The notes under the pieces: generated by a model | Seen by the model: only the letters and a program-made list of their open reading frames with translations | The model's database searches: none | What the model was told of the DNA's origin: nothing | Shown here: positions 251 to 30,709 of the stretch, piece by piece | Layout of the letters: each line of letters opens with the position of its first letter | Numbering within the stretch: position 1 is the first letter of the stretch | Assembly (NCBI RefSeq): GCF_000485595.1 | Contig: NW_014577080.1 | Span: forward strand, 900,200 to 933,020 | Direction of reading: 5' to 3' | Origin: Priapulus caudatus | Taxonomy: Eukaryota | DNA length: 32,821 nt | Translations under genes and position numbers: made by a program

Positions 251-1521
251 ATTGCTAAGTGCCGAGTGTTGTGCACAATGATACACCCGAGTAAATGTAC
301 TGCCACTACTCATTCCTGATCAGTATCGCGGTATTGTAAACCGTCCTGTTTAGTGCGCCATAATTCTACCTTATAAAGAAAACAATAATTAAATTTCTCA
401 TCCCAATAATCCTAATATTGCAACCATGTGCTAAATGCAGACAAATCCACCTAATACCTAAATATGGCCAGGTGCTAAACCTTAATTATATTACGATGTT
501 TGACTCGTTAATCGGATGTTGGCTAACACGTCAAGGCATCAGGTTCCATTGCCACTTCTTTCCATCACCCTCAAGCCTTCGTTGTCACGAGTTGTTTTCG
601 GGAATAATAGTACGGGCTGCGAGTAACCGATCCTCCAAGTATTAGATCCGTTTAGGGATAGCCTGAATAATATTGACCCAACCACTATATGTTTGAGCTG
701 TCAGGCGCTTATATTCGCAGTAACGAGCGAATATAACAGGTAATGTGATCGTCAACAATCCAAACACAAGGTCGGCCTTACCTTATAAACAGGATCTTAC
801 AACAGCCACGAAAAACACACATTGGCCGCTACGACAAACATACCGAACACTATAAAAGCCAAAAACTGGGTTATAGGAATCAATACCTAGTTCCTAGGGA
901 AAGTTTGCTGTTCTAAGAGTGATCACAACATAGCCTAGACGACCACTATATTACACGGTCACAAGTGAAGCACCTCTGTGGAGTTTTCTATAAATAAGGT
1001 ATCACTGACGTAATAAATATATTGTAAACAGGTAGTTTACATAAGTTTTAAGAATGCAAACTCCTATTTAAAATTACATTGCCAGCAGATTATTCTTATA
1101 ATAACTATAGCTTGGGCAGCAAAAGCAGGCTTAATGGAGCTGTGTGAAACACGAGTCTTCCACGTCCAGGGTCTTTGCGCATGAAACACAACAGCTAATG
1201 TTGTTATTGTTTATGCATGTGGTAGCAAGACTAGAGCGTACACGATTTCTTCACACGATTCGTGCAGCTGAGCTCGAGGTCGCTCTGTCTGCCTTAGAGA
1301 TGGGTTCAGGTGCTACCATTCCCTTGCTAAAATTGGACACGCCGATCGAGATGTGTGAAACACCGTGCGGCCTGCAGCGGATTCACACTATCTGCGCTAC
1401 TGCGTAGACATATTAATTACCGACATCGTCAGGCTGTTTATTTAGAGTTCTGTTCTATAAACGGGTAGGATCTGCTAGGTTCTCTCTCGGCCAGCCGATT
1501 CGAATAGGTAAATTAAGCGCT

Positions 1522-1556
1522 TATATAAAGGAACGCGAAACGTCTAGAGTTTAGTC
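1522..1556 (+). promoter_or_regulatory. RNA polymerase II core promoter (TATA box + initiator) of the GH8 gene
   Basis: TATATAAAG at 1522-1530; TTAGTC (Inr-like, TCAGTY type) with its A at 1553, ~30 bp downstream; followed by a splice donor at 1601. Confidence 0.65.
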
Positions 1557-1600
1557 CTGTGCCTGCGTGTTCGTGCATCGTTCGTTGAAGTCTTCTGTAC

Positions 1601-2018
1601 GTAAGTTCTTCTTAAGCTGTTGGCTTAGGGTTTTGCTACTCTGTCTTGATTTACTTTGCTACTTTCTAATCTTGTATCTATCTCTTCTCGAAGATTAATT
1701 CTTATATTTCTTAACGTGGAATTTCTTCACATCTGTTGTAAGAGTATTCACTCGCGCTAGCTTGTCTTGGCACCTACTGTACTATCGTGTTAACCTATTG
1801 TTACAGAATTTCCTTGTAATAAATCTATCTTTCGTAGCACTGTCTTCTCTTGTGTTCTTGTAATTATTAAGTGTTAACATTTTTTACGCACTTTAGTGTA
1901 AGACGTATAAGCACGCTTACAATATATAAAAATATAATTTAAGAATTTTACCGTTTCTTCGTGCATGATCACGAATGAAAATGTACATTAATGTGTTTGC
2001 GTTTGTTCTCGGTTGTAG
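1601..2018 (+). other. Predicted 5'UTR spliceosomal intron of the GH8 gene
   Basis: Consensus donor GTAAGT at 1601-1606, AT/T-rich body, branch-like CATTAAT at 1986-1992, T-rich tract and TAG acceptor at 2016-2018, 6 nt before the ATG at 2025. Confidence 0.65.
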
Positions 2019-2024
2019 GTAATA

Positions 2025-3968
2025 ATGGCAAGATCGGTTCTTTGCTTTCTAATGCTGGCTGGCTCGTTGCTGACAGCAGTCAACGCCGGCTGCTCGGTTC
2101 AGAGTAACTGCTGGAGTACAGGCTGTACGGTCCAGGTTAACACGGACCCCTGGACTCCCAACGCCGTCGAGAGCTTCACGTTCACGAGCGACTACGCCAC
2201 CGTTTCGGACGAGATATGGAACGCGATATTGATCGATCAGAATGGCAAGACGTACACCGTAAAGCTGGCATCGTACTCGACGAATCTCTGGGGCTTCAAC
2301 GTCAGGGGTGTGAGCGAGATCCCACAGGTAAGCTGCGAGGGGAGCGCACCAAGCACACCGTCGCCAACGACTTCGCAAACCACACCGCAAACCACACCGC
2401 AAACGACGCCGAAAACGACGCCGCAAACGACGCCGCAAACCACACCGCAAACGACGCCGCAAACGACGCCGCAAACGACGCCGCAAACCACACCGCAAAC
2501 GACGCCGCAAACGACGCCGCAAACCACACCGCAAACGACGCCGCAAACGACGCCGCAAACGACGCCGCAAACGACGCTGCAAACCACACCGCAAACGACG
2601 CCGCAAACCACACCACAAACGACATCGCAAACAACACCGGAAACGACACCGCAGGCGTCGAGTACAACGTCGCCCGGCAGCGGTATCCTGCTTCCGACCG
2701 TAAGCCTCCAGTCGAGCTTCAGTCGCATGATCGAATTCAGTAACACCCTCACTACGATCGTCGACAGCGCCTCTAGCGCCCGAGCCGTCCACAGTAGCGG
2801 TGGCGCTGCCGGCGGGGTCGTCTCCGAGGGTCAAGGGTACGGACTTTTCATCGCCGCCTCCGTCGCTGCCACGACGTCGGCTGGCGAACGCGATACGGCG
2901 CTCAGTTACGCCTTCGAGATATTCCGCGGCTGGAAGAGAATGTGCGAGCTGACGGACCAGAGTAGTTGCCAGGGTGGTGGCTACATCTGCGAGGGTAACC
3001 CCTGCCTGCCCAACTGGAAGTTCGACGACAATATCGCGGGAGCGCTTGGCACCGGTGCGGCGGCGGACGGGGACGCGGACGCTATATTGGGAATGATCAT
3101 CATGGTGGAGACATCTGCCGGTGAGGTACGTTCGTGGTGGAACGAGATCGCAAGCTGGGCTTACCAGAGCTGCAAGGCTTTCATGGATTTCAACACGATA
3201 CTAGATTTGTCCGGAACGAAGAGGATTATGCGACTTGGTAGCTGCTGGGGAGGTTGGGACTGCGCGAATCCGTCCTACTACGCACCGGCGCACTACCGCG
3301 TGTTCAGAGATTACATGTTGAAGTACGCCAGCACATACGCCACGACAAGCGAAGGACTCGATTACAGCACCAAGTGGAACGACCTCATCAACAACGTCTA
3401 CCTCGTCTTAGAAGCCAATCAGTGTTCTTCGACCGGACTGACGACTAACTGGTTCGTTCCGTCTCAGTCCGACCCATCTAGCGGTGGCGCCACTGCCTGC
3501 TCCGGAAGTGGAACACCGGCGGCCGAGTTCGGCTCCGAGGCTTCGCGCGGCATTTGGCGAGTCGCTCTCGATGTCTTCTGGTTCTTGGAGGAAGCTACGC
3601 AGGGCGTCGGTGCCGCCACCTACTCGGCGCGCGTCGCCAACCAGGTCATATCAAAGATGAAGACGACCAACAGCAGCTGCCTCTCCACGCACTGCGTCGG
3701 CAACCTGGACACGGGATGCTTCGTCACGTCGATCCACTCCGGCTGGCTGGACAACGCCTTCATGTTCGGGCCAATGTTTTCGTCGCTGCTGCCGCCGCTC
3801 GTCGGCGGAGAAGCGGCCGACCAGCAGCGCGTGCTCGACCTCGCAGCTACGAAGGTCGACTCGCAGAGCATCAGCGATTACTACAGCGGTAGTTGGACGG
3901 CGCTTGCCACGCTCACGCTGTCGGGCGATCTGGCTGCTCTGAATCCCCTACTTTCCGGTTTGATCTAA
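2025..3968 (+). CDS. Secreted glycoside hydrolase family 8 enzyme (endoglucanase/lichenase/xylanase/chitosanase family) with N-terminal CBM2-like module and PQTT linker
   Basis: 647-aa uninterrupted ORF; hydrophobic signal peptide ending VNA-G. GH8 motifs in order: VSEGQGYG (E268), LPNW, AADGDADAILG (D348), NPSYYAPAHYRVF, GLTTNW, FGSEASRGIWRVALD, YYSGSWTALATLTLSG. These parallel Clostridium thermocellum CelA-type motifs (recalled, not aligned by software). Confidence 0.93.
   Translation: MARSVLCFLMLAGSLLTAVNAGCSVQSNCWSTGCTVQVNTDPWTPNAVESFTFTSDYATVSDEIWNAILIDQNGKTYTVKLASYSTNLWGFNVRGVSEIPQVSCEGSAPSTPSPTTSQTTPQTTPQTTPKTTPQTTPQTTPQTTPQTTPQTTPQTTPQTTPQTTPQTTPQTTPQTTPQTTPQTTLQTTPQTTPQTTPQTTSQTTPETTPQASSTTSPGSGILLPTVSLQSSFSRMIEFSNTLTTIVDSASSARAVHSSGGAAGGVVSEGQGYGLFIAASVAATTSAGERDTALSYAFEIFRGWKRMCELTDQSSCQGGGYICEGNPCLPNWKFDDNIAGALGTGAAADGDADAILGMIIMVETSAGEVRSWWNEIASWAYQSCKAFMDFNTILDLSGTKRIMRLGSCWGGWDCANPSYYAPAHYRVFRDYMLKYASTYATTSEGLDYSTKWNDLINNVYLVLEANQCSSTGLTTNWFVPSQSDPSSGGATACSGSGTPAAEFGSEASRGIWRVALDVFWFLEEATQGVGAATYSARVANQVISKMKTTNSSCLSTHCVGNLDTGCFVTSIHSGWLDNAFMFGPMFSSLLPPLVGGEAADQQRVLDLAATKVDSQSISDYYSGSWTALATLTLSGDLAALNPLLSGLI
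2088..2340 (+). other. CBM2-like carbohydrate-binding module (within CDS)
   Basis: C-x-V...W-S-T-G, IWNA and WGF motifs bracketed by terminal Cys, matching the W..GF / WNA / FGF pattern of CBM2; shorter than typical. Confidence 0.6.
2376..2654 (+). repeat. Coding 12-bp minisatellite encoding a (QTTP)n Pro/Thr linker
   Basis: ~23 in-frame units alternating CAAACCACACCG and CAAACGACGCCG. Confidence 0.95.
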
Positions 3969-4766
3969 ATTACGGAAACACCTTAGTGGCTATATCATAT
4001 ATCGTATTGCATCGGCTTTATACTATATATATATATTCCTAGCTGCGTAGTAATACTTAGATATTATGCAACAAAACAGATCAAGTAATAAGAAATCAAT
4101 ATAGAGTATAGTACCTATATTTTTGAGTAGTTTTTATGTAGTATTTTTGTGCGAGTAAGTGGAGAGAGACTCACTACATACGTAATGCATGCGGTATGTC
4201 AGCGCATAGATGTGAATAATTTCAGCGTGGGCAACCGCTCTATAGCTTACGGTATCTGTTTTTGGAGGGTAACGAGTGGTGGTTTTAGATACGTGGCACA
4301 AATTCGCTGAAATGTGAGTGTGTCAGTTGAGTTAATGGTGTACGGTGCGGAGAGATACGTGTACCAGCGCGAAGCGTGTATTCTGTTAAATGACCAGGCG
4401 GCACAGCTAGGTGTATTATTAGTGTCAGAGACATTTAGCACGTCACGTCGTTCTGAGTTAGTAAACTGGATAGTTGTCACCCGTTAGATCTGTTGTTGTG
4501 TTATTTCCTGGTTGCCACATGATATCACGGAACTGTCCACCCGTTGTCACAGTAACTAAAATGTGTAAGAATCCGATATGCTGGCTGATTTACTAATATA
4601 CCTGATATCGATACAAAGCAGTTTGTATGTAATGCATTCAATGGGTAATCAATACGCTGCGCACGTAGCATGACTTTCACTGCGAGAGAACGGTAAGATC
4701 TAGTGTGGGAAGGTCGGGGGAAAAGAGATCAAATGATGCTTTGCGACGTGCGAGAGCGTTCAATAT

Positions 4767-6960: not shown

Positions 6961-7428
6961 TTATACCTCTCCCAAAGTGGTTGGCAGGAGTTAATATTCA
7001 CCGGCGTTTTTGTTGTTTGTGGTTTGTGCGTTTGGTTTGTTGTGACACCTAACTGAAAATGTATGACGGAATGTCATATCCAATTTCCAGGATAGGTCAG
7101 AAATGGCTAACTCGAAAACTGATTTTGTTTGGTGGTGAACCGTCCAATTAATTAATTAATTAATAAATTAATGAAAATTTTAGCTTAGTCAGAAAAATGG
7201 ACAAACTTAGAATTGATACATTTGTGTATCCGGATCCAAAATAATTAATAATAATTAATTAATAAAATTTTCAGGATAGGTCAGAAATGGGTAACTTAGA
7301 AATCGATACAATTTGGTGATCCGGAATACCAATTAAAATTAAATTAATTAATCTAATTAAATAATTTTTAAGCAGTCAACATCAAATGAGCTGCCTGGCG
7401 GAGGTCTGCTCTCACCGATGCCCGTCTG
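6961..7428 (+). mobile_element. Non-autonomous Helentron-associated (DINE-1/HINE-like) element
   Basis: 5' ACCTCTCCCAA (6965-6975) is an imperfect inverted partner of (T)TGGCGGAGGT (7396-7405; cleaner copy at 13060-13070); GTTT-type microsatellite near the 5' end; three ~92-bp internal tandem units (7084, ~7178, 7268); short degenerate 3' hairpin. Confidence 0.55.
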
Positions 7429-8716
7429 CACACACATAACTAAATCCAAGTCCTGATCCTAGACCCTAGTCACTATCTGGACGTGAAGGTGTGCCAGTCG
7501 ACAGACAAAATACTGATACATATGGACTGTGAATCATGATTTACATGACAGTCATTCTGCCTTCGGCTCAGAAAGTCCAACGGACCACCTGACTAATTAA
7601 TTCCAGCACAAATTACGATATTTACCAGATACCAGCAATTGATGTGCAACTGTATTTCACTCTATATATTCGTTCCGCCAACAATGCCCAATAGGTATAC
7701 TGTTAATTGTATGTCTTGACCAACCTGACCATTATTGAAATACTGCGTTGGAGATTAAAGACTGAAGACATAATTGCAGTCTTGAACAGCAATTCGTTTC
7801 CTAACAATCAAACAAAATCATTTATGCATGTCTACAGTACCCACAAACGTTCACGAGAACGCATGTGTGGAACATCTTTAGATGCGATGCCGCATCTTAC
7901 AAGCTACAATACCAACAAAAGGAACGAAGGCTCAACAACTTCCATTGAAGAAAAGTTTCAGACTAAATCTAAATATGGTACTTTCAACTTTCAATAACGT
8001 AACCCCACACCACAAGTATACAATTTCACCAAGAGTACCCAATGATCAGAAACGCCCAAACATTCGCTTACAAATCGCTGAAAACCTCCTGCACAATCTA
8101 TCAGACTCTAACACCCCACCCCACGCCCGATAAACCAGCCCAGCAAACCCTGAAAACGGCACCGATCGCTAGAAACCCCTCTCGGCACCTGCACGAGTGT
8201 AAAACTCGACAAACATTTTTTATAATCTTATATTACGACTATTTTATTAGACAATTTAGTAACTATTCAGAAACTCAGATTAACCCGTTACAGTAACCGA
8301 CATAATATAAATAGACCTTAGTCATTGTTAACTAAAAGATTTCCAACAAATGTATTGTTGTTATTAACAATACAATTTACATATATTATATAGTTTAAGA
8401 AAATGCAGAGTAAATTATGAATAATCTGCTTGATCAAGATTATAATATCCATAAAAAATTACAAGAAAAGAATACAAAGTACTCGACCACAGTGGTTGAA
8501 AATAATTACTCATCGATTTTGTGTGTGTGGACAGCACTGAAAGTGAGCTGAACACTGTTCACGGATGCAATGAGTTCAACGAATCACGGAAATTCACGAT
8601 ATTCGTTGAGTCTTCACGTTTGGGTCGTCTAGAACACTCCCCGGTAAAATGAGGAAATATCGCCCTCCCTGAAAAAGCATCCAGATCGCTTGTGCGGTTT
8701 GCCGGCCATAGGGTAC
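7382..8716. repeat. Block X, copy 1 (copy 2 at 13045-14414)
   Basis: Colinear direct repeat differing mostly by 1-bp indels. Confidence 0.9.
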
Positions 8717-8763
8717 AGATAACATACATACATAACATACATACAACTTCAATATAGATAAGA
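8500..8763 (-). mobile_element. 5' terminal segment of a non-autonomous Helitron-like family (also 14200-14414 and 16590-16863)
   Basis: Minus strand starts A|TCTTATCTATAT followed by (GTAT)n; the same ~260 bp recurs next to different left flanks. Confidence 0.5.
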
Positions 8764-10979
8764 TATGACCTATAATTTAATAATATATATATTTTATATA
8801 TCATTATAATCTCTCCCTTTATAATCATATTAAACTTACAATTACCAACTACCTAACCTAACACATACCTTACCTACCATTACTTCTCACCACAATACCT
8901 AACGTTTTCCTACTTTATAACCGACGTAGGGCGCACGAAAAACTAAATAAAACTGAAATAACCCTAAATACCCAAAGACAACCCCACCTACAGTCACTCA
9001 ACGATTACTCGGTACGATGCCCTCGAAATCCCATGGCTGATAACCAAATCTACGTGCCTCAAACTCCTCCAAGACGCCCCAGTTACAAGCACATCCATAA
9101 CACAAAAACCCCAATGCCGTCGATAACTGAAACGCATAGACAGAGACGACACTGCTGAAAGCGTTGGATCGGGAATCCCGTCTGTTTTTTAATAATTCTT
9201 GTTCTGTATATTCTGTTTATCCATATTACGGTGAGCAAGCAGATGCGTGAAGTCATACACAGCGAACTCGCACAGGGTACTTTGTACGTAACCCACGTTG
9301 GGTGCTGATCCACGCACCAACGCACGTTACGTGCACAAACAGCTCCATCCATGCACGCACCGCATGCACGCACGGACTGCGCATAGCACGCAACGTGACG
9401 TTTCGGCACGCCACAGCACGGCACCGCACCACTCACCACAGCACGTCTACTCACATGCATGCACCACAGCACTCTTCAACGTTACCACACACACACGAAA
9501 CGACGCACGCATACATGCACACACTGTACCTGCACACGCACGCACGCACGCAACGCACAAACGTGAACCTCACACGCGCGCACGCACAGCACGTGTACGT
9601 GCCAACACACAACGAGACGCAAGCACTCACACGCCATCGTGTAAGCACACGCACGCACGAAACGCACATGTAAACACGCAACGCTCGCACGCACGTGTAA
9701 CGTGTACACGCACCACAACACTCATGCACGCAACTGTACTGCCACGCGCCGTATACATGCACATGCACACAGCGCACGACGCACAGCACGCACCACGTTA
9801 CGGCACACACACGGACGCACGCACGCACGTGTACTGCACGCACAAGCTCGGACGCCGCACGCACGCACGTGATACATGCACCACCAACATGCACACACCA
9901 TGCTCCGCACGACCCATGGATTTGGGAGCTATACAGCACAGCTAATATTTCGCGCCGTTCGCTTGATGACTGAGCCAGTCCAGTGATTTCTCAATGCAAT
10001 CACGATTTCATGTGTAGCGAATTACTTCAACCTGAATACGACCGGCTCGAGCCACGTGGGCTAGCAGCAGATTGAAAGGAAAGTCCTGCGGCACCACTTG
10101 ACCTAATAGTTTAATTGACGGTCACCGACTGCAATTCACACCTTTGGGTCACAGACTGTAACGCACTGTTCCCACGGCTGTATATAATCGCGGCGACAGC
10201 TCCAAAGCACACAGAGACAGCTTTGCTCAGTCATGGAAGATCTCGCACCCTCCCACGCTCTCTACTGAGGCGGCTGTCCCCGCCTCTAGCGATCACATTA
10301 GGGTGTTAGCGACTCGGTAGAACTACGGCAAGATACAACAGCCAGGACAAAATCACGTGATTGCCGCTGCTGCCACTTCCTGACCGGCAAGGATACAACA
10401 GCCGGGAGCCAGCTCGGCTCAGCCAGGAAGCTCAACTGCTCGCGCACGCACGCAACGGTAAGTTCGCACGCACCATCGCACGCACATTAAGCGTCCGCAC
10501 GCCACGCAACGCACCAACGCCACGCAACCAGCACGCACGTGAACGTCACTACAAAACAGCGCTTTCTACAGAACATGGGTCATCCATCTGTAAATGTCAC
10601 AAGCATCACGCTTGCTCTGCCAACACACCAACACATAACAAATACACGTTACTTATCTAGACGTCACCGGAAACACGCTATTAGGCTAGCCGCTATGGGT
10701 GTGCATAGTTTCCTAGTGAATTTAGACCGTCTAAAATCAGACGCGCTGGCAGCAATTGATTCCTGCGCCGGCCTTTTCGATTGGCGGCACGATCAGAAGC
10801 TGCCAGCGCGTGATACTTCGTAGTACGCCCCGTCGCGTCACCTTGCCACGAAACTGCGCGCAAATCGCGCTACGGCAGGAATCAACACCTCTCAGGCCGA
10901 CGCCCTCTCTGTAATCCGGTCTCCTATCTGGTCATGTGCTATGTCATCAGAACTCGGTCGACGCATGCACTTATACACA

Positions 10980-12343
10980 TCAGGTAGATCATCAAGGCTG
11001 CGAACGCAAAATATTTTGGCGTAAATCTTGTTACGCAATCGACGCTTGCTAGTGCATTCAACCAACACACGCCATTTATAAATTTCGTACGCATTCGTGT
11101 ACGCAAGCGAGGCCTTTAGATGCGATTCAGCAAGCAAAATTACGTAACCTTGCNNNNNNNNNNACGCACGCACGTGTACGTGCACACGCACGCACGCACG
11201 TGTACGTGCACACACGCACGTGTACGTGCACACGCACGCACGCACGTGTACGTGCACACACGCACGTGTACGTGCACACACACGCACGCACACGTGCACA
11301 TGCACGCACGCACGCACGTGTACGTGCACACGCACGTGTACGTGCACACGCACGTGTACGAACGCACGCACGTGTACGTGACACGCACGCACACACGCAC
11401 GCACGCACGTGTACGTACACACGCACACACGCACGCACGCACGTGTACGTACACACGCACGCACGCACGCACGTGTACGTACACACGCACACACGCACGC
11501 ACGCACGTGTACGTACACACGCACGCACGCACGTGTACGTGCACACACGCACGTGTACGTGCACACACACGCACGCACACGTGCACATGCACGCACGCAC
11601 GCACGTGTACGTGCACACGCACGCACGCACGTGTACGTGCACACACGCACGTGTACGTGCACACACACGCACGCACACGTGCACATGCACGCACGCACGC
11701 ACGTGTACGTGCACACGCACACACGCACGCACGCACGTGTACGTACACACGCACGCACGCACGTGTACGTGCACACACGCGCGTGTACGTGCACACACAC
11801 GCACGCACACGTGCACATGCACGCACGCACGCACGTGTACGTGCACACGCACGCACGCACGTGTACGTGCACACACACGCACGCACACGTGCACATGCAC
11901 GCACGCACGTACGCACGCACGTGTACGTGCACACGCACACACGCACGCACGCACGTGTACGTACACACGCACGCACGCACGTGTACGTGTCGCTGCTTTC
12001 ATGAGTGTTGAACGCAATCGTATGAACGAAAATGAGGACACTATCACATCCCCCAGCACTCCCGTAGACAAAGCTAGACGAGCCATATGGTTTAAATACA
12101 AGAGAGGCGTCAGTTTGGTTCCTATGGTATGTGTCGCACAGTGTGATTGGTTTATGCTAGGCACGCCCTTCAACAGCCAGCAGTCACGATGGCGTAGTGG
12201 ATTTACACTAGAATTCATCAACATTTGCGTACGCAGGTGCTACGCTGCGTTGATGAATCGCACCTACGAGTTTTGCGTACGTACTTCGTAGAAACTCGGT
12301 GTACGCAATACACTTTACGCAACGTTGATGAATCCGGCCCCTG
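10980..12343. mobile_element. MITE-like element with GATTCATCAA terminal/subterminal inverted motifs (PIF/Harbinger-like) carrying a purine-pyrimidine microsatellite
   Basis: Right end TTGATGAATC at 12250 and 12325 (ending ...CCGGCCCCTG); left end GATTCA(T/C)CAA motifs, best seen in copy 2 at 19162, 19233 and 19309; ~71-76 bp spacing on both sides. TSD not resolved. Confidence 0.5.
11164..11990. repeat. Compound (GCAC)n/GTGTAC alternating purine-pyrimidine microsatellite
   Basis: Almost uninterrupted RY alternation; noisy equivalents at 19567-20572 and ~24945-25810; related tracts at 9320-9910, 17420-18045 and 22020-22590. Confidence 0.95.
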
Positions 12344-12447
12344 CGTAGTGGCCCCTGCGTAGTGGCCGCCCAGGCAGCACGGCACTGCCGTGGCACTATT
12401 TTGAGAAAAAAATTGTGCAGGGAACAACATATACCAAGGAGATGAAA

Positions 12448-12690
12448 CCCCGGGGGGGGCATCACCCCACATTATGGTAGGTATGTGCCACTGCGAAGTC
12501 AAAAATGGGGGGGGGGGACTCTGGAACTAACTCAAACCTTAAAATGGGGGTCTCTGGAACTAATGTTTGTTGAATGTGGTATGCTCTGGAACCGGCTATG
12601 TTCGAAAATGGGAGTCTCCGGAACTAGGATTTCGTTGAAATTCAATGCTATGAAACTGGACACGTTTAAAAAGAGGGGGACTCCGGAACT
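12448..12690. repeat. CCCGGGGGGG-headed segment with six 32-33 bp phased GGAACT units (probable DNA-transposon subterminal region)
   Basis: GGAAC(T/C) or GAAACT at 12523, 12556, 12588, 12620, 12652 and 12685; consensus AAAATGGGGGTCTCYGGAACT. Confidence 0.6.
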
Positions 12691-13044
12691 GTGGGGAGAA
12701 CAGTGATTTGCTTTAAAATTTATGCTGTGTAAACACGAATGAGCGTTCATGTAGAAATGATGAAGTAGATCCAAACTTGTGTGAAAAACTGTACAAACTT
12801 TAATATCTTACATACATCATATCTCCTTACACACAGACAAAGACCGCCGCACACGCACGGTCGCGCGTGCGCGTACTCTCGCGACCAGAACCAGAATCCT
12901 CGACTCCTATATCTCTGTCCTATATATTACCCGCCAACCCCCTATACATCTTGAGCGCACATGTCACCCGTTCTCCCAGACCGCGTCCTACCCCCATTTC
13001 ACAATGACCCTCTAATCTGTCTAACCTAACCACGTTTACCATTC

Positions 13045-14414
13045 TCAAATTGAGCTGCCTTGGCGGAGGTCTGCTCTCTCCGAGTCCCGTTCTGCACACA
13101 CATTAACTATATCCAATCCTGATTCCTAGACCCTAGTCACTATCTTGGTAGCGTTGAAGTGTGCCATCGACAGACAAAATACATGATACATATGTGACGT
13201 GTGTATCATGATTTTACATTGACAGTCATTGCTTCGGGCTCAAGATAGTCACGGACACCTGACTAATTAATTTTCCAGGGCACAATTTACTATATTTGAC
13301 AGATACCAGCAATTGATGTGCAACTTGTATTTCAGCTCTATATATTCGTTCCGCCACAAGGCCAATTAGGGTATATGTAATTGTATGTCTGTGACCAACT
13401 GACCATTGATTGAAATACTGGCGTTGGAGATTAAAGACGTGATACATAATTTGCGGTCTGTGGTACAGCAATTCGTTTCCTAACAATCAAAACAAAATTA
13501 TTTTATGATGTCTACAGGTTATCCACAAACGTTCACAAACGCTATGTGTGGAAATCTTTAGATTGCGATGCGCATTCTTACAGCTTATCAATAACAAAGT
13601 AATCGATATGCTCACACAACTTTTCCATTTGAAGAAAGTGTTCTAGACTAATCTAAATATGGTACTTTCAACTTTCAAGTAACTGTTAACCTAACCACAA
13701 GTTTACAATTTCACCAAGAGTCAGAGATGATCAGAAACGCCCAAACATGTACGCTTACAAATCCTGTAAAACCGGTCCTGCACAATCTTATCAGACTCTA
13801 GCACCCCAACCCACCCTGATAAACCAGCCAGCAAACCCTGTAAAACCGGACCGATCGGTAGACTGCACTGCACGATGTTAAGAATGCGCAACATTTTTTA
13901 TAATTTTTATATTTATGACTATTTTTTATTATGCAATTTAGTAACTATTTTATAACTCAGATTGAACCGTTACAGGTAACGACATATACTAATGATAGAC
14001 CTTAGTCATTGTTTATTCTATAAAGATTTCCAACAAATTTATTGTTGTTATTACAAATCAATGTTTACATATTTATTATACATGTTTAAGAAATTGCATG
14101 TAGTAATTATGTAATATATCTTGTTCTTGATCAAGATGTGATAATTCCATAATATATTTACAAGAAAGAATACAAATGTACTGACACAGTGGTGGGAAAT
14201 AATTACTCATCGATTTTTGTGTGTGTGCCAGCACTGTAAAGTGAGTGCTGACATTGTTCACGGAGTGCTGAGTTTCACGAATTCACGGAATTTTCACGGA
14301 TTATTCGGTGAGTTTCACGGTTTGGGTCGTCTAGGAACACTCCCCGGGTATAGGAAATCGCCCTCTGAAAATTGCATCCAGATCGCTTGGGCGGTTTGGC
14401 CGGCCATAGGGTAC
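13045..14414. repeat. Block X, copy 2
   Basis: Colinear with 7382-8716. Confidence 0.9.
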
Positions 14415-15665
14415 CAGTCCGACCAATCAGGGGCCTGCTTAGCAGCGACAAATCAGGGGCCCTCGTAGCAGCTGACAATCCTGGCCTCGTAGCCAGCCGA
14501 CCAATCCTGGGGTGTCGGTAGCAGCGACCAATCATGGACTCCAATTAGGGCGCTTGTTAAGCAGCGCACAATCAGGGGCACCTTCGTAGCAAGCCAACCA
14601 ATCAGGGGCTTCCTAGCCAGCGACAATCAGGGGCATTGAGTCAGCTGACAATTCAGGGCGTCCTAGGCAGCCGATCCAATCATGGACCTCCTAGCACTGA
14701 CAATCAGGCGGCTCTCTTGCAGCCAACCAATCAGGGGCCTGCGCTAGCAGCCGACCAATTCTGGCCGTCAGTAGCAGCTGCACCAATCAGGGCCTCGTAA
14801 CGCAGTCCGAACCAATCTTGGCTCTGTAGCCTAGCCGACCAATCCTGGGGTGTCCTAGCGCGCCGACCAATCATGGACCTCAATCAGTGGGCATTTAGCA
14901 GCGACCAATCAGGGGCGTCAGCAGCCGACCATATCAGGGCGACTCCTAGCCACCTGGCCAATCAGCGGGTCCTCGTAGTAGCCAAACCTAATCAGCGGCG
15001 CCTATCTTAGCCAGGCGCACCAATCAGGGGCCTCGTAGCAGCTGGACCAATCAGGGGCCTCGTAGCAGCCGACCAATCAGGGCGTCTCGTAGCAGCCGAC
15101 CAATCCTGGCGCCTCTAGCAGCCGACAAATTCAGCGGGCCTCCGTAGCACGACCAATCAGGGGCCTTACTTAGCAGCCGGACCAATCAGGGCCCTCGTAA
15201 CAGCCGACCAATCAGGGGCCTGTAGCCAGGCCGACCATCAGGCGCCTTGTAGCAGCTGTACAATCAGCTGCGGCCTCGTGTGCTGCCGACAATCAGGGGC
15301 CTCGTAGCATTCCGACCAATCAGGCGGCCTCGTAGCAGCCGACCAAGCATGGGGCCTCGTAGCAGCCGACCAATCCTGCGGCCCGTAGCAGGCCGACAAA
15401 TCAGGAGCCTCCTAGCAGCGACCAATCAGGGGCCTCTTAGCAGGACCAATCAGGGGCCTCGTAGCCGGCTAGCGACCAATCAGGGCCTCGTAGCAGCCGA
15501 CCAATCTCAGTGCGCCTTGTAGCAGTCTGACCAATCAGGGCGCCTCGTAGGCTGCGACTCAATCAGGGCCTTCGTAGCATCGACCAATCTAGGGCCTTCG
15601 CAGTAGTAGCAGCCGACAAGCAGCAGGGCCTTGTAGCAGCGGACAATCTATCAGCCTCCTAGCAA
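14415..15665. repeat. 26-bp minisatellite, consensus CCTCGTAGCAGCCGACCAATCAGGGG, roughly 45 copies
   Basis: Head-to-tail units without unique spacers; frequent 1-bp indels. Confidence 0.92.
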
Positions 15666-15767
15666 TCACGCGGTTCAATCAACCATCTCAGATCTTTTTA
15701 ACAATCATTTGTTCAGTGAATTGAATCTTTTAACATTCACTGAATCACTTATTACACTTATATTATA

Positions 15768-16863
15768 CTAGGCTGCGGGTACCGCTGCAGCTGACGGTAA
15801 ATTTGTTGTGCTTACTAATTCATACTACTAATAATGAGGACACAAAATAAGGAACATTGGGTAAAAATTCGACAATATACATTGCACACATATGAATATT
15901 TACAAATCAGTCTAATACGCATATATACAGCATGCCGGGAAAATCTGTTATGTATGACATTTTCATTCATGACTAGCACAATCCAACTTTAGAACCTCCT
16001 GAGACATAATCAGTAATATGGTGGTAAATGACAAAAAAGCTTATATATAAACAGCTATGTACGAATATGGCAGTTGCAACTTTTCATTTCAAAGTCTCTT
16101 GATAAACAATGCTTTTTCGTCTTATTCTCTGCGTGCAAAATATATAAGAGCATTTCCTTGGGCGCCTCTCCAACTTTGAGCTCCCACGTACAGCTATCCA
16201 TTGGTCAGAATTCGCTACCATGAATAAAAGAAATTCCATTATAGTATAGTCAGAGACAGGCCCAACGAGTCCTGTGTGCACTGAATATGTTGTCTAAGTG
16301 AATCGCTTGGCGCGAAACCATGCAGCATTGAAATTAAGAAATTTTTCTACCTGAATCAGCAAAATGCATAGCTTTTCGAATCGGTACAATGCATTCTGCA
16401 GATAGTAACTTAATAGCCAGAGTAGATTCTTGATATCTCAACTCAACCTCTCTACTCAGTGAGTAGCTACCTCTCAACTAGCGTTGCTTGCTCTGTTTTA
16501 GTTATTGTTTCGCCGCTTTCTTTTTTTTTTTTTTTTTTTTTTTTTGTTTTTTACAAATACCAGCAGCTGCATGCAGGTGCACGGAAATAAATAGCTCATC
16601 GATTTTTGTTGTGTGTGGGCAGCACACTGTACCAGTGCAGTGCTGACATTGCTTCACGGTCAGTGTTGAGTTCACGAATTCACCCGGAATTTTCACGGAT
16701 TATTCGGTGAAGTTTCACGGTTTGGGTCGTCTAGGAACACTCCCCGGGATATAGGAAATCGCCCTCTGAAATTGCCATCCAGCATCGCTTGGTGCGCGTT
16801 TGGCCGGCCATAGGGTACGATACATACATACATACATACATACGAACTCAAATATAGATTAGA
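15768..16863 (-). mobile_element. Non-autonomous Helitron-like element (~1.1 kb)
   Basis: On the minus strand: A|TC start at 16863 followed by (GTAT)n; CTAG|T end at 15771-15768, preceded by an imperfect hairpin TACCG-CTGCAGCTGA-CGGTA (15780-15799); A^T insertion site. Confidence 0.55.
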
Positions 16864-19800
16864 TTATATATATTATATATTATATTATATTTTATATATT
16901 ATTATATTCTTCTTCCTTTTATAATCATTATTAAACTTATCATTACCACTACCTTACCTAACACTTACCTTACCTACCTTACTTGGCTTCACACAATTAC
17001 CTAACGTTTTTTCCTACTTATATAACCGGAGTAGGGCTCACGAAAAACTATAATAAAACTGAAATAACCCTAATTACCTCAATGACCACGCCCAACCACA
17101 TGCCACTCACGCATGTTTACTCGGTTGTACGATGGCCCCGCAAATCCCATTGGTTGCCATTACAAATCACGCTGCTCAAACTCGCTCAATGAGCCCAGTG
17201 TATTCAAGGCACATCCATAACACAAAACCCCAATGCCTCGATAGCTGAACGCCAATAGACAGAGACGACAACTGCTGAAATGTCGTTGCGTGTTGGATCG
17301 AATTTACCCGTCGTGGTTTTTCTTTAATTATTTTCTTTGTTTTCTGTATTTTTCTTTTATCCATTATTACGGTTCAGGTAGCAGCGCAGATGCCCGTGAT
17401 ATTGTTCGATACAAGCGCTTACGCACGCACGTGTACGTACGCCACGCACGCACGCACGTTGTACGTGCACACACACACTCATGCACGCCACGCATGCCAC
17501 GCACGTGTACGTTCGCACGCACGCCACGCACGCCACGCACGCACGCACTGCACGCACGTCTACGGCTCATCATGCATGCACGCACGCACGCACGTGTACT
17601 ACACACACACGAACGGGTTACGCACGCATACATGCACACACGTGTCACCTGCCGACGCCACGCGACGCACATGCACGCCACAAAACGTGTACCTTCACAC
17701 GCGCGCACGCCACGCACGTGTACGCTGCAACAACACACGCGCACGCCACGCACGCATGCACTGCACCGCGCACGTGTAAGTTCACACTTCACGCACAACG
17801 CACATGTACGTACGCACGCTCGGCACGCACGTGTACGTGCCATCACGCACGCACCACACTATGCACGCCACGGTGTACGTGCGCACGCAACGTATACATG
17901 CACATGCACACGAGCGCACGGACGCCACGCACGCACGCCACGTGTACTGTGCACACTACACGGACGCACGCAACGCCACGATGTACGTGCCACGCACACG
18001 GACGCACGCACTGCACGTGTACGTGCCACACGTACGCACACACTCATGGGATTGGCAGCTATACAGGCACAGCTGTATATTTCGCCCGTTTTCGCTATTG
18101 ACGGAGCGTTCTCAGCTGATTCTCATGCAATAGCGATGTTTCATGCTGTAGCGAATTACTTCAACCTTGAAGACGTACGGCTTCGTAGCCACGTGGCGCT
18201 AGCAGCAGATTGGAAAGGAAAGCCTTGCTGCCACCACCCTTGACCTATAGTTTAATTGGATCTGTCACCTGCCAGGTCACACGTGGGGTCACATGATCTG
18301 TAACCACGCTGGTGTCCACGGCTGTATATAAGCTGCGGCGTCCAGCTCCAAAAGCTACACAGAGCCAGCTTGGCTCAGTCAGGGTAAGCTCGCACCCTCC
18401 CACTGCTCTCTAGCTGATTGCGGCTTGTCGCCCTGCTAGCTGACCTGTAGCGTGTACGGAGACTCGTCGGAAGTCTACGCAAGGATACACAGCTCAGGAC
18501 GATGATCACGCCGCTTGCTGCCCCTCTTCTGACGCAAGGATACACAGCGCGGAGCCAGCTCGGCTCAGTCAGAAGCTCGCTGCCTCGCGCACGCTACGCA
18601 CGTGTAAGTTCGCACGCACGCATGCACGCACAATGTACGTCCGCACCGCACGCACGCACGCACGCACGCACGCCCAGCACGCACGTGTACGTGCACTACA
18701 TAAACAGCGCCTTTCTATCAGAACATGTGGTCATTCATCTGTAAATGTCAAGCCGCACGCTTTGCTTCTGCCAACCACAACACATTAACAAATACACGTT
18801 ACCTGATCTATGACGTCACGTGAAACATCCGCCTATTAGGCTTGCGCTATGTGTGTGCATATGTTGCTAGTGAATTAGACCCGCTAAAATTCGAGACTGT
18901 TCGCTGCAGCAAATTGATCCGTGCGCCGGCCTTTCGATTTGCTCGCGCACGAATCAGAAGCTGCCAGCGTCGTGATACTTTCGTAGGACGCTTCCCGCGG
19001 TCGCGCGCCACCTTGCCGCGGAAAACTGCGCGCAAATTCGCCGCTTAGCGGCAGGATCAACACCTCTCAGCGACGCCTCTCTGGTATCCGCGTCTCTCAT
19101 CTGGTCTTGTGCGTAGGCATGCAGACTCGGCGACGCATGCACTGTATACACATCAGGCGGTGATTCATCAAGCTGCGAACCGCAAAATATTTTGCGTAAA
19201 TCTTGTGTACGCAATCGACGTTGCTTAGTTGCGATTCACCAACAACAGCCATTTAGTAAATTTCGTACGATTTCGCTGTACGCAAGCGAGGCCGTTTAGC
19301 GTGCCTTAAATTCATCAAGCTAAAATTTACGTAAACCTTTGGCGCTAACTTTACACGAGCTGACGAGGTGCCGTAAACACTCGAAATTTCCGCAGATGTT
19401 TTTCAGCATACGCAAGCATGCATTATTTTATGAGAAAACATTATAAAATTACTACTCAACTAAAAATAAAATAATAATTACCATACTACGCCGACAGGCG
19501 CCGCCTTTACGCCCTTCTTTTGTCATAGCTTGCATTGTTTCGTTATAAGCGAGTTCGTAGTTAGCCGTGTACGCTGCACACGCACGCACGTGTACGTCAC
19601 ACGCACGCACTTGTACGTCACACGCACGCACGTGTACGTGCACCACGCACGCACGTGTACGTGCCCACACGCCACGCACGCACACGCTGCCACAAGCACG
19701 CACCCACGTGTTACGCTACCACGCGCGCCCGTGTACTACACACGCTACGCACCACTGTACGTGCACACGCACGCACGCCACGCACGTGTACGTGCCACAC

Positions 19801-21438
19801 GCACGCACGCACGCACGTGTACGTGCCCCACAGCACTGCACTGCACACGTGCACATGCACACACGTACGCACGCACGTGTACGTGCACACGCACGCACGC
19901 ACTGTGTACGTACACACGCACGCCACGAACGTTACGTGACACACCCGCCACACACGAACGCACGCACGTGTACGTGGCACTACGCACGCACGCACGTGTA
20001 CGTGCACCACACACGCACGCCACACGTGCATAAGCACGCACGCACGCCCGTGTACGTACACACGCACGCACGCACGTGTACGTGCCACACGCCACGTACG
20101 TGTACGTGCACACACACGCACGCACGTGCACATGCACGCACGCACGCGCGCCCGTGTATGTACAAACGCCACGCACGCACGCCACATGTTTACGCTGACA
20201 CGCGCACGCACGCACACGTGCACACGTGTACGTGCACACACACGCACGCACACGTGCACACGCACGCACCGCCACGCACGTGTACGTGCACACGCACGCA
20301 CGCACGTGTACGTACACACGCACGTACGTGCACACGCCCACGCCACGCCGCCCGTGTACGTACACACGCACGCACGCACGTGTACGTGACACGAACGCAC
20401 ACACGCACGCACCGCACGTGTACGTTACACACGCACGCACGTACGTTGTACGTGCACACACGCCACGTGTACGTGCACACACACGCCACGCACACGCTGC
20501 ACCATGCACCACGCACGCTACGCACGCACTGTACGGCACACGCACACCACGCACGCACGCACGTGTACGTGTCCGCTGCTTTCATGAGTTGTGAACGCAA
20601 TCGCTATGAACGAAAATGAGGACACTATCACATCCCCCATAGCACTCCGTAGGACAAAAGCTCAGCACGCAGCCATATGGCTTTAAATACCAAAGAGAGC
20701 GTCAGTTTGTGTTCCATGCGTAGAGTCGCACAGATGCTGATGTCGTTTATGCTAGGCACGCCCTTCCAACCAGCAGCAGCTCACGATGGGCGTAATGGAT
20801 TTACACTTAGAATTCCATTCAACGATTTCGTACGCAGCCGCTGCCTACGCTCCTTTGAGATCGCCACCTACGGTTTTGCCGTTAACCTTACTTCGTAGAA
20901 ACTCGGTGTACGCAAACACTTTACGCAACGTTGATGAATCCGCCCCTGCCTATGCGCCCCTGTTGGCGTTAGTGCGCGCAGCTCGCCGCACTGTCTCGGC
21001 ACTATTTTTTGATGCAAAAAAATTGTGCAGGAACAACATATACACAGAAGAATGAAACCCGGGGGGTGCACTCCACCCCTACATTATCATGGTACGTATG
21101 TGCCATCTGCGAAGTCAACAAATGGCAAGGGGGGACTCTGGAACTATAACTCCAGACTGAAAATGGGGTCTCGAAACTAATGTTTGTTGAAGTTGTATGC
21201 TCTGGCAAACCGCGCTATGTTCGAAAATGGGAGTCTTCGCGAACTAGGCATGTCGTTGGAATTCAATCCCTATGAAACTGGACACGTTTAAAAAAGCGGG
21301 GACTCCAGGACTGTGGGTCGAGAACAGTGATTGTTAATATTTAATTGCTATTAAACACGAATGAGGCTTCATGTAGAAATGATGAAGTAGATGCCAAACT
21401 TGTGCTGCAAAAACTGTACAACTTTTAAATATCTTACA
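16590..21438. repeat. Block U, copy 2
   Basis: Colinear with 8500-12815; insertion-rich; ends at a 25-N gap (21439-21463). Confidence 0.9.
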
Positions 21439-21463
21439 NNNNNNNNNNNNNNNNNNNNNNNNN

Positions 21464-26781: not shown

Positions 26782-27447
26782 CATCACATCTCCTTACACA
26801 CAGACAAAGAACGCGCATACGCGCATGTGCTCACCTCCGCGCCCAGCACCAGAATTCTCCCGACTCCTATCTCCCTGTCCTATATATTACCCGCAAACCC
26901 CCTACATCCTGAGCGCACATGTCACCCGTTCTCCCAGACCGCGTCCTACCCCCATTTCACAATGACCCTCTAATCTGTCTAACCTAACCACGTTTACCAT
27001 TCTCTCTAATACATCAATGTAGCCGCGCATCTTGTTGCGCGACGCTCTGTCTAGCTAGCCATGTAACACGTGTAAAACAGATGTTACATGATCTCGCTTT
27101 TCCCAAAAACGATGTCTACCCTGTCATCGATTCAGCGTCCTCGCTGGTCTACACTTCAACCTAAACCTAAACTATTCCAAAAAAAAATTACTATCCTGAT
27201 ACTTTCCTAACTTAACCCAACGAGAGAAACGTCTTTCTGTCCGATTAAACCACCCACAATCAATACACACAAACATAACAACAATCAAAATACAATAAGA
27301 AAACACATATGAAGCGTAGAAAACAAGTAACGATAAAGTTCGATCACAATACAAGTCAGAAACTCAACACATTTGGCATGAACATTCTGATATCGCTGCA
27401 ATTACTCTCACTCTTGCGTATTTTTATGCTGTAACGTACGTGGCGTA

Positions 27448-28191
27448 TGTCACCGTGTCACTTCTTTATTTATGCCCACGCGTGACGGCGTGATCGTATC
27501 TCTGTTTAGTACCCCGTGAGGGAATAACCCGGATCGAGGATATAAAAGACAGCCATTGATATACAACTCAACGCCGTAATTTAGATAACACACGCACGTA
27601 TAACATTTATTAATTAATATCCCCCATCACCGTACACTTCAATCCCAACACCCCACTCGTTATAAATTCGTCATGTATTCTAATGACTACCCAGCACTTG
27701 CCTACAATTGCTGTTACTACCGTCGTTACCCGTCCGTCTCGCTCAAATCATCCCCGCGACCCATCTACTCCCGACACTGCTAAACTATATTATTAACCCG
27801 CAATACTGTCCCGTCCGAATTCTATACCATTTACTCTAACAACAATCTAAACAGTCTGTACAATCAACTAACATACAAAGAAAAACCATAGTTACGTATA
27901 TGCCATCTCGTCGGAGGAGTCTTGTTCAGCTTCGTCTCGGCTGGTCCCAGCACACTCTCTCCCTACTCTGTTAAACTCAGCTTATTTATGCTGCCCAACG
28001 TCTGCGTGCGACCTTGCTCCCTTCGGTCAATGGGCGTACCCGCCATCTTCCTTTGTTTCTTGTTCTGCTGCTGTTGTTCTTCCCGCAACTGGGTTAGTGA
28101 TGTCATGTACCTCCATCGCTCGGCTGGTACTGCCCGGTGGTCGGTGACGTAACCGTTTCGCGTTCCTTTTCGTACCATATGCTCGGTTACA
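27448..28191 (-). mobile_element. 3' LTR of Ty3/gypsy element (744 bp)
   Basis: Minus strand reads TGTAACCG...CGGTGACA (7/8 inverted match), preceded by polypurine tract AAAGGGAGGGG (28206-28196); 27448-27967 is a direct repeat of 31764-32280. Confidence 0.85.
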
Positions 28192-30359: not shown

Positions 30360-30425
30360 GCCTTTCCTCTCTCCCACTCTCTCTCCTCTTTCTCTCTTTC
30401 TCTCACATACATATACTCGCTCTCT

Positions 30426-30466
<41 letters not shown>

Positions 30467-30671
30467 TCTCTCTCTCACTCTCATATACATCTGTTCGCTC
30501 TCTCTCTGTCTCTCGCTCTCTCGTGCTCTCTCTCTCTCTTTCTCTGTCTCTCTCTCTCTCGCTCGCTCGCTCTCGCGCTCTCTCTCTCTCTCTGTCTCTC
30601 TCCCTCTCTCTCGCTCTCTCGTGCTCTCACTCTCTCTCTGTCTCTCTCCTTCTCGCTCGCTCTCTCGCGCG

Positions 30672-30709
<38 letters not shown>

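What the first reader, a model, noticed from the sequence alone, without database searches (positions are those of the whole stretch)
2025..3968. Secreted CBM2-linker-GH8 enzyme embedded in animal-type genomic DNA: candidate horizontally acquired polysaccharidase
Seen: an intact, intronless, GC/CpG-rich ORF with all GH8 motifs, flanked by AT-rich DNA, microsatellites, Helitron-like elements, MITEs and a gypsy element, with no neighbouring bacterial-style genes. Established: GH8 is overwhelmingly a microbial (mostly bacterial) family, whereas endogenous animal cellulases are mainly GH9, GH5, GH45 and GH7. Inference: gene transfer from a microbe (bacterium or microbial eukaryote) gave the host an unusual route to digest cellulose, beta-glucan, xylan or chitosan. 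The host taxon cannot be fixed from this window.
Basis: partly seen in the sequence, partly recalled or inferred. Interest (0 to 1): 0.88.

Follow-up and report, generated by a model that had tools for sequence, protein, structure and literature searches.

The report
Family-8 glycanase shared by priapulids, sponges
A marine worm, likely Priapulus, carries and transcribes a gene for a family-8 sugar-chain-cutting enzyme, a family usually described as bacterial; its closest named animal relative is a sponge gene inside a larger group of protist genes, so it is likely an old eukaryotic enzyme rather than a recent gift from bacteria.

Summary
The ORF is real (2025-3968, 647 aa): likely signal peptide, divergent CBM2-like module, Thr/Pro/Gln linker and a GH8 barrel (Pfam 36.5 bits, cut-off 24; model pLDDT 94). 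It is a host gene, not a contaminant: the best hit is Priapulus caudatus XP_014663182 (90%), DNA runs of three studies and RNA runs of a fourth carry it or its paralogues, and it has a TATA box and a predicted 5'UTR intron. A bacterial donor is not supported: bacterial GH8s are about 30% identical or less over partial lengths, and the one 49% 'bacterial' hit is a misbinned eukaryotic contig. The gene belongs to a eukaryotic GH8 clade (Amoeba, Difflugia, Prymnesium, dinoflagellates) that I did not find described. Within it, priapulid-like and sponge-like (Ephydatia) proteins group together (95/93, 95/94, 91/97). The general-base site holds Glu, not CelA's Asp. Best reading: an old animal gene, widely lost, predicted to cut beta-1,4-glucan (0.5); separate transfers from protists or between animals stay open (0.35). 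Activity, tissue and root are untested or weak.

The parts
1522..1555 (+). TATA box followed by an initiator-like site; likely core promoter
   Evidence: one of 7 matches to the pattern in the window; the other 6 lie in two AT microsatellites; 0.41 expected by chance. The pattern was written after seeing the site, and the consensus is recalled.
1601..2018 (+). Predicted 5'UTR intron (GT donor; pyrimidine tract and AG acceptor ending 6 bases before the ATG)
   Evidence: RNA depth is zero at 1790-1938 in all 3 RNA runs and resumes in the 1939-2087 bin in X8, but no junction read was listed and X8 has about 1x at 1641-1789.
2025..2090 (+). Likely signal peptide, residues 1-22
   Evidence: Hydrophobic N-terminus read from the sequence; no predictor was run.
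2091..2345 (+). Shortened CBM2-like beta-sandwich, residues 23-107; keeps Trp30 and Trp65, lacks the loop with the third Trp
   Evidence: No Pfam hit. Atlas 0.93 by features, TM 0.73-0.77 to CBM2 parts. Foldseek ranks 1-12 are CBM2-type cellulose, xylan or chitin binding domains, best E 6e-3. Best Z 7.8 to 2xbd. Alignment.
2346..2690 (+). Thr/Pro/Gln-rich linker; 12-bp tandem repeat at 2362-2653
   Evidence: P0001 is 87 residues shorter, almost all in this linker.
2670..3968 (+). GH8 catalytic barrel, residues 216-647, with 12 cysteines
   Evidence: Pfam; CelA hit E 2.6e-7; model pLDDT 94.1, pTM 0.94; the top Foldseek rows are GH8 enzymes, best E 4.5e-14.
2826..2828 (+). Glu268, predicted proton donor (CelA Glu95 position)
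   Evidence: alignment; Glu in 52 of 52 rows of A2. CelA numbering partly recalled.
3066..3068 (+). Asp348, predicted to hold the -1 sugar (CelA Asp152 position)
   Evidence: Asp in 52 of 52 rows; role of the equivalent Asp in PMC5407803.
3276..3278 (+). Tyr418, predicted to place the attacking water; Ile in P0001, Leu in P0003
   Evidence: Tyr in 50 of 52 rows; role of the equivalent Tyr in PMC5407803.
3537..3539 (+). Glu505 at the GH8a general-base position (CelA Asp278)
   Evidence: alignment; Glu in 50 and Asp in 2 of 52 rows.
3969..4470 (+). Transcribed 3'UTR in AT-rich DNA; possible poly(A) signal variant at 4460
   Evidence: RNA depth runs on from the ORF to about 4470 in X8 and X9.

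Best explanation
This is a host gene of an animal, likely Priapulus caudatus, predicted to encode a secreted family-8 endo-glycanase that likely cuts beta-1,4-glucans, and it was likely inherited from early animals rather than taken recently from bacteria. Shown: the ORF, the GH8 match, the conserved catalytic positions, transcription of this gene family, several divergent copies, and the grouping with sponge-like proteins inside a eukaryotic clade. Inferred mechanism: after secretion the CBM2-like module docks on an insoluble glycan through Trp30 and Trp65; the linker, likely O-glycosylated, tethers the barrel; Glu268 protonates the glycosidic oxygen while Glu505 activates a water placed by Tyr418 (inverting hydrolysis, as in GH8a enzymes). 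Substrate odds (my estimate): cellulose or mixed-linkage glucan 0.55, xylan 0.2, chitosan 0.15, other 0.1. Likely role: digesting algal and detrital walls swallowed with mud and prey. Inferred history: one GH8 lineage entered eukaryotes long ago, was present before sponges and bilaterians split, was lost in most animals and was duplicated in priapulids. I put the 'host gene in a eukaryotic clade' part at about 0.95 and the 'inherited from the animal ancestor' part at about 0.5.
For: Host gene: best hit P. caudatus XP_014663182 at 90% on an 813-kb scaffold. Five DNA runs of 2 studies hold 0.26-0.71 of the words, a sixth 0.06. A Hi-C run of a third study covers 30 of 30 bins, flanks included; three RNA runs of a fourth give 321, 169 and 13 reads. 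12 of 13 amino-acid-changing codons among the listed read variants match P0001. Eukaryotic clade: named hits are Ephydatia, Amoeba, Difflugia, two Prymnesium, Symbiodinium, Durusdinium, Polarella. In GTDB genomes 11 of 12 loci were 23-30% identical; the twelfth (L001, 49%) has split reading frames and TBCA and ANTH neighbours. Neighbours of 5 close metagenome loci scanned (L017, L023, L027, L028, L030) include HMG-box, CCCH-finger, actin/F-box, kinase, TPR and Tudor-knot proteins. Animal grouping: FastTree 98 (119 rows); IQ-TREE mixture model 95/93, 95/94 without bacteria, 91/97 with 13 bacteria-like rows. AU tests rejected priapulid-like rows joined with the haptophyte group (p 0.032), the Amoeba pair (4e-5), two unnamed rows, one CBM2-bearing (0.017), dinoflagellates plus their unnamed sister group (2e-4) and 13 bacteria-like rows (0.03). 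Substrate: 18 of 115 listed relatives carry CBM1, CBM2, LPMO or expansin-type domains. Diet: algal remains, mud and detritus in gut contents (PMC3530608). Precedent for patchy retention: GH13_1 amylases (PMC7003070).
Against: Only two named animal species appeared, so inheritance needs many losses; no choanoflagellate, cnidarian, fungal or other bilaterian name was seen. Identity to Ephydatia (53%) is no higher than to Amoeba (52%). With only 4 distant bacterial rows, priapulid-like plus bacteria was NOT rejected (p 0.285), and three of the rejections are modest (p 0.017-0.032). In one search the animal branch has bootstrap 91, below the star. P0002, P0003, P0005, P0006 and P0008 are unnamed; calling them animal is inference. 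The coding region has no intron, unusual for a very old animal gene. Expression is low (about 14 reads per million at best), comes mostly from the P0001-type copy, which has Ile at the Tyr418 site, and the tissue is unknown. Foldseek ranks chitosanase, CelA and lichenase about equally (E 4.5e-14 to 7e-13). Priapulus is described as a predator and omnivore, not a herbivore.
Confidence: 0.5

Rival explanations
1. Separate transfers from related, unsampled protists into demosponges and into the priapulid line, or one such transfer followed by a sponge-priapulid exchange. The enzyme would work as described above.
For: Very patchy animal distribution (absent from the PMC6011409 tables). Coding region without introns. 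The sponge-like proteins P0101, P0006 and P0007 are full-length products on long ENA contigs, which suggests they lack introns too (inference; no DNA seen). Some protist loci have an uninterrupted match as well (L017, L029, L030). Both animal groups ingest protists (own knowledge).
Against: No sampled protist row falls inside the animal group in 4 of 4 trees. Depth within each animal subgroup is large (P0003 0.72 changes per site from the window), so any transfer is old. Animal-to-animal transfer is judged rare in PMC7003070.
Confidence: 0.35
2. Direct transfer from a bacterium into the priapulid line.
For: GH8 is mostly bacterial, and bacterium-to-eukaryote transfer of GH8 is documented for lichen algae and fungi (PMC11126685). 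One AU test with 4 distant bacterial rows did not reject it (p 0.285). The GTDB scan covered 40 of 64 parts.
Against: Bacteria-like rows form a separate side at 100/100 and are about 30% identical or less over partial lengths, against about 50% over the whole domain for eukaryotes. AU p 0.03 with better outgroups. The one close 'bacterial' contig is eukaryotic. No match in plasmids or viral contigs.
Confidence: 0.05
3. Same origin, different job: defence or cuticle work (chitosan in moulting, or walls of parasites and biofilms) rather than digestion.
For: Chitosanases are the top Foldseek rows. CBM2-type chitin-binding domains are among the fold matches. Low expression; copies differ at an active-site residue.
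Against: The base site is Glu in the GH8a position, not the Asn of GH8b, which includes lichenases (PMC11126685) and, from recall, chitosanases. No chitin-specific binding family appears in the Pfam column of the 115 relatives.
Confidence: 0.2
4. Contaminant or chimera: a protist sequence assembled into an animal scaffold.
For: Much of the window downstream is noisy, indel-rich sequence. No long read or contig bridging both edges was seen (table 8 is empty). Hi-C depth drops from about 15-22x to 4.6x after position 4025.
Against: Present in runs of four studies; RNA runs from the ORF into the AT-rich 3' flank; a second copy is annotated on an 813-kb scaffold; relatives with the same architecture at 72% and 56%. 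The depth step is explained by several copies sharing the upstream and coding parts.
Confidence: 0.03

Closest known systems
Priapulus caudatus LOC106805923 / XP_014663182 (uncharacterized; P0001)
   Same: Same architecture; 90% identical in the catalytic domain, 82% in the N-terminal module.
   Different: Linker much shorter (protein 87 residues shorter), 66 substitutions in 559 aligned residues, Ile in place of Tyr418. Probably a paralogue.
Ephydatia muelleri KAL5493300.1 / Em0005g1480a (cluster of P0004)
   Same: Nearest named lineage in the trees; 53% identical; all four catalytic positions kept.
   Different: No binding module or linker; a sponge; on a 10-Mb scaffold.
Clostridium thermocellum CelA (GH8a endoglucanase; PDB 1cem, 1kwf)
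   Same: Same barrel (TM 0.62-0.73), acid Glu, Asp and Tyr positions align.
   Different: 20% identical; Asp278 site is Glu; about 70 residues longer, 12 cysteines; CBM2-like module attached.
Lichen-alga and fungal GH8 acquired by transfer (PMC11126685)
   Same: GH8 anchored in eukaryotic genomes; a precedent for eukaryotic GH8.
   Different: Those have the GH8b Asn and lichenase activity and nest with bacteria and Mucoromycotina. No green alga or fungus was named among my hits, and their supplements did not contain Priapulus, Ephydatia, Symbiodinium, Prymnesium or Metazoa (12 of 13 files searched).
CBM2b xylan-binding domain of Cellulomonas fimi xylanase D (PDB 2xbd, 1e5b)
   Same: Best fold match in two searches; same length; lacks the loop with the third Trp (rule in PMC9996879).
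   Different: 16-28% identical. It has Gly three residues after the first Trp, which from recall is the cellulose-type (CBM2a) state.
GH13_1 alpha-amylases of animals (PMC7003070)
   Same: Same pattern: amoebozoans, sponges and scattered bilaterian phyla; authors favour loss over transfer.
   Different: There, shared intron positions back inheritance; here the coding region has none to compare.

Membership tests
GH8 | Pfam PF01270 above the curated cut-off | tested here: met
   36.5 bits against 24.
GH8 | (alpha/alpha)6 barrel like solved GH8 enzymes | tested here: met
   Model pLDDT 94.1; best Foldseek rows are GH8 structures, E to 4.5e-14, TM 0.6-0.7.
GH8 | Proton-donor Glu and the -1 subsite Asp and Tyr | tested here: met
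   Glu268, Asp348, Tyr418 align with CelA.
GH8 | Inverting hydrolysis of a beta-1,4 glycan | not testable with these tools
   Needs an enzyme assay.
GH8a (Asp at the CelA Asp278 site) | Aspartate general base at that position | tested here: not met
   Glu505; Glu in 50 of 52 relatives. An acid is kept, so it likely works like GH8a; not filed as GH8a. Five bacteria-like rows also show Glu there.
GH8b (chitosanases, lichenases) | Asn at that position | tested here: not met
   Glu, not Asn (definition from PMC11126685).
CBM2 | Pfam PF00553 match | tested here: not met
   No hit at E up to 1.
CBM2 | CBM2 beta-sandwich fold with surface Trp residues | tested here: inconclusive
   CBM2-type domains rank first in three searches, but E 6e-3, Z 7.8 and a pLDDT 76.6 model are middling. 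Two of three Trp positions kept (that profile included two true CBM2 rows).
CBM2 | Binding to cellulose, xylan or chitin | not testable with these tools
   Needs a binding assay.
Bacterium-to-animal transferred gene | Nested in or sister to a bacterial clade; best non-self hits bacterial | tested here: not met
   one weaker test did not reject.
Bacterium-to-animal transferred gene | Integrated in the host genome and transcribed | tested here: met
   long-read bridging not seen.
Gene inherited from the animal ancestor | Animal copies form one group | tested here: met
   Split supported in 4 of 4 trees; 5 of the 8 rows are unnamed, and the root is weak.
Gene inherited from the animal ancestor | Shared introns or gene order; presence in further phyla | not testable with these tools
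   No host genome was held and no sponge DNA could be read.

The most novel reading that the evidence does not exclude
A eukaryote-wide GH8 subfamily with a glutamate general base, not found described, reached animals once and then moved between two animal phyla (demosponges and the priapulid stem): an old animal-to-animal enzyme transfer, with a binding module added and the gene duplicated in priapulids.
Probability: 0.12. Interest if true: 0.85.

Novelty: new variant of a known kind. Interest (0 to 1): 0.6.

Why it matters
A 2024 paper states that, by CAZy, GH8 had been found only in bacteria, and adds fungi and lichen algae (PMC11126685). This window points to a separate, large eukaryotic branch (225 representative proteins at E up to 1e-10) in amoebozoans, haptophytes, dinoflagellates, a sponge and a priapulid. 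If it dates to the animal ancestor, early animals had a further endogenous glycanase family that nearly all descendants lost, which bears on what the first animals and Cambrian-type worms could digest. It is also a clear case of a gene that looks like bacterial transfer until protists and sponges are sampled. I found no characterised member, and the Glu base and paralogues differing at Tyr418 are easy to test.

Tried and rejected
No whole genome was held, so copy number, gene neighbours and host codon usage could not be measured. Contig-level bridging of the gene edges in other runs was not obtained. No indexed holder was on record as RNA (no evidence either way). Viral contigs: no relative in 2 scans. 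Plasmids: no match. NCBIfam: nothing informative. A search with the N-terminal module alone had only 22 candidates and returned P0001, so the module's origin is open. My acceptor-plus-ATG pattern found 0 matches, so it gives no statistic for the intron. GC contrast was rejected as a sign of foreign origin: there is no host gene in the window to compare, and CpG content is flat. L001 was rejected as a bacterial donor. The first domain extraction was discarded because its profile included linkers. Rows left out of trees: 128 partial or intron-broken domains, near-duplicates at 80% or more, one row under 300 aa; IQ-TREE runs used hand-picked subsets of 46, 32 and 42 rows. The groups for the protist AU tests were read from the trees, not named beforehand. 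Three look-ups of earlier findings returned nothing. 'GH8' hits in PMC12198962 and PMC11083476 were GH81. Not-in-print claim rests on: GH8 + Priapulus, 0 papers; listings, where no title concerned this family, 0 papers. The library lacks most subscription journals; 3 picture-only supplements and 1 oversized file of PMC6011409 and 1 file of PMC11126685 were not seen.

Full report
Observation. The window holds one substantial protein-coding gene, an uninterrupted ORF at 2025-3968 (+) of 647 residues. It reads as a hydrophobic leader, an 85-residue module, a Thr/Pro/Gln repeat (2362-2653) and a GH8 domain (PF01270, 36.5 bits, cut-off 24). GC is 0.56-0.61 against 0.40 in the flanks, but CpG observed/expected is about the same inside and outside (1.24 against 1.08-1.20), so 'CpG-rich' is no marker. 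The flanks hold microsatellites, a small inverted-repeat element and an LTR-like element with a weak gag match. No whole genome was held.

Is it a host gene? The best database hit is Priapulus caudatus XP_014663182 (P0001), 90% identical in the catalytic domain, on an 813-kb scaffold. Six DNA runs of one organism, from two studies, hold 0.06-0.71 of the sampled words. A Hi-C run of a third study covers 30 of 30 bins of 300-4750. Three RNA runs of a fourth study give 321, 169 and 13 reads from about 22 million each; in X8 and X9 the depth continues from the ORF into the AT-rich 3' flank to about 4470. Of 17 codons touched by the listed variants (the tool showed 40 of 332 rows), 13 change the residue and 12 of these match P0001. 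The organism is therefore likely P. caudatus, and most RNA comes from the P0001-type copy; about a third of X9 reads at 3'UTR sites carry the window's letters (for example 9 of 23 at 4162). Hi-C depth averages 22x upstream, 15x over the catalytic part and 4.6x downstream, and 470 of 695 reads are under 99% alike: several divergent copies share the upstream and coding region. Upstream lie a TATA box with an initiator-like site (1522-1555) and a predicted 5'UTR intron (1601-2018); no junction read confirms the intron. Long-read bridging was not seen.

The enzyme. The model of residues 216-647 (pLDDT 94.1) matches solved GH8 enzymes, with chitosanase, CelA and lichenase about equal. Against CelA, Glu268 sits at the proton donor, Asp348 and Tyr418 at the -1 subsite positions described in PMC5407803 (passages), and Glu505 at the Asp278 general-base site. 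Across 52 aligned relatives these are Glu 52, Asp 52, Tyr 50 and Glu 50/Asp 2. The two exceptions at Tyr418 are P0001 (Ile) and P0003 (Leu). The site is neither the Asp of GH8a nor the Asn of GH8b, but an acid is kept, so inverting hydrolysis as in GH8a is the likely mechanism. The N-terminal module has no Pfam hit; CBM2-type domains rank first in three fold or feature searches with middling scores. It keeps two Trp positions and lacks the loop with the third, the CBM2b trait (PMC9996879, passages), while the Gly after the first Trp is, from recall, the cellulose-type state. Of 115 listed relatives, 18 carry CBM1, CBM2, LPMO or expansin-type domains (names of PF03443 and PF03330 recalled). A beta-1,4-glucan substrate is the best guess (0.55). 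Priapulus gut contents include algal remains, mud and detritus besides prey (PMC3530608, passages), which fits a digestive role, but tissue data are lacking.

Where it comes from. Two searches listed 92 and 115 relatives, each from the top 7,998 candidates; a full scan found 472 representatives at E up to 0.001 and 225 at 1e-10. Most are unnamed; 30 clusters were looked up. Every taxon name on a close relative is eukaryotic: Ephydatia muelleri, Amoeba proteus, Difflugia compressa, Prymnesium polylepis and P. parvum, Symbiodinium, Durusdinium, Polarella. In GTDB genomes (40 of 64 parts scanned) 11 of 12 loci were 23-30% identical; L001 (49%, labelled Gammaproteobacteria) has split reading frames and flanking TBCA and ANTH genes and is a misbinned eukaryotic contig. 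Five close metagenome loci whose neighbours I scanned look eukaryotic too. Viral contigs and plasmids gave nothing.

Trees. The window, P0001, P0002 (72%) and P0003 (56%) share the same N-terminal module. They group with Ephydatia and four unnamed sponge-like proteins: 98 in FastTree on 119 rows, and 95/93, 95/94 and 91/97 in mixture-model trees on subsets holding three of those four. Haptophytes, amoebozoans and dinoflagellates fall in their own parts of the tree. AU tests rejected joining the priapulid-like rows to the haptophyte group (p 0.032), the Amoeba pair (4e-5), two unnamed rows of which one bears CBM2 (0.017), dinoflagellates plus their unnamed sister group (2e-4) and 13 bacteria-like rows (0.03). 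With 4 distant bacterial rows the last test did not reject (p 0.285), so the root is weakly placed. Whether P0003 joins the other priapulid-like rows or the sponge-like ones is unresolved.

Reading. A recent bacterial donor is unlikely (0.05) and contamination less so (0.03). The simplest reading of one animal group inside a eukaryotic family is presence before sponges and bilaterians split, with wide loss (0.5), as argued for GH13_1 amylases (PMC7003070, passages). Against it: only two named animals, identity to the sponge no higher than to Amoeba (53% and 52%), five of eight animal-group rows unnamed, and no coding introns. Separate old transfers from unsampled protists, or an exchange between the two animal lines, remain open (0.35).

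Novelty. PMC11126685 (passages; 12 of 13 supplements searched) describes GH8 as bacterial plus fungi and lichen algae, with an Asn site; that is a different branch. GH8 is absent from the animal and crustacean GH tables of PMC6011409 (section 6 and supplements). A search for GH8 with Priapulus returned 0 papers, and the listings showed no title on this family; the library lacks most subscription journals. The proteins are already in databases as uncharacterised entries with an automatic GH8 tag. Verdict: a real animal GH8 in an apparently undescribed eukaryotic subfamily; new variant of a known kind; interest 0.6.

Noticed in passing
window 2085-2666: Three Hi-C reads (2 start places) join 2085 to 2666 with 13 other letters, a net in-frame loss of 567 bases. 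This may be a copy without the binding module and linker, like the sponge form, or a library chimera.
   Followed up: partly
window 3276-3278: The main expressed copy (P0001 type; 11 of 14 X8 reads) has Ile where 50 of 52 relatives have the water-placing Tyr; P0003 has Leu. Possible change or loss of activity among copies.
   Followed up: partly
window 3862-3877: Most Hi-C reads (17 of 24) show a one-base insertion and a nearby one-base loss plus substitutions not seen in RNA or in P0001: a third copy type.
   Followed up: partly
window 7382-27004: Several copies of a multi-kilobase repeat are 70-83% alike with gaps about as many as mismatches or more, as expected of uncorrected long-read gap filling; this part of the assembly is probably unreliable.
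   Followed up: partly
window 27446-32280: LTR-like element: 522-bp direct repeats at 97%, a gag-like ORF (30924-31292, minus strand, below Pfam cut-off), no polymerase domain in the ORFs scanned, and a small inverted-repeat element inserted at 31346-31478.
   Followed up: partly
window 14414-15650: Degenerate tandem array of a 25-28-bp unit containing a CCAAT core, about 26 good copies at 14881-15597.
   Followed up: no
L001 (GTDB genome G001, contig C17): A 42.8-kb contig in a genome labelled Gammaproteobacteria is eukaryotic (split frames, TBCA, ANTH); its GH8 (P0057) is mis-called through an intron and could mislead transfer analyses.
   Followed up: yes
P0006, P0007: Two sponge-like copies share a longest contig of 1,093,144 bases and end in hydrophobic tails that look like GPI-anchor signals (read by eye), suggesting surface-anchored forms.
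   Followed up: no
P0167, P0172, P0169, P0325: Relatives are fused to CBM1, LPMO, EGF, expansin-like and CBM2 modules; P0167 has two GH8 domains.
   Followed up: partly
L052, L054, L057: A more divergent group (27-30% identical) lies between the bacterial rows and the main eukaryotic clade and keeps Asp at the base site.
   Followed up: partly
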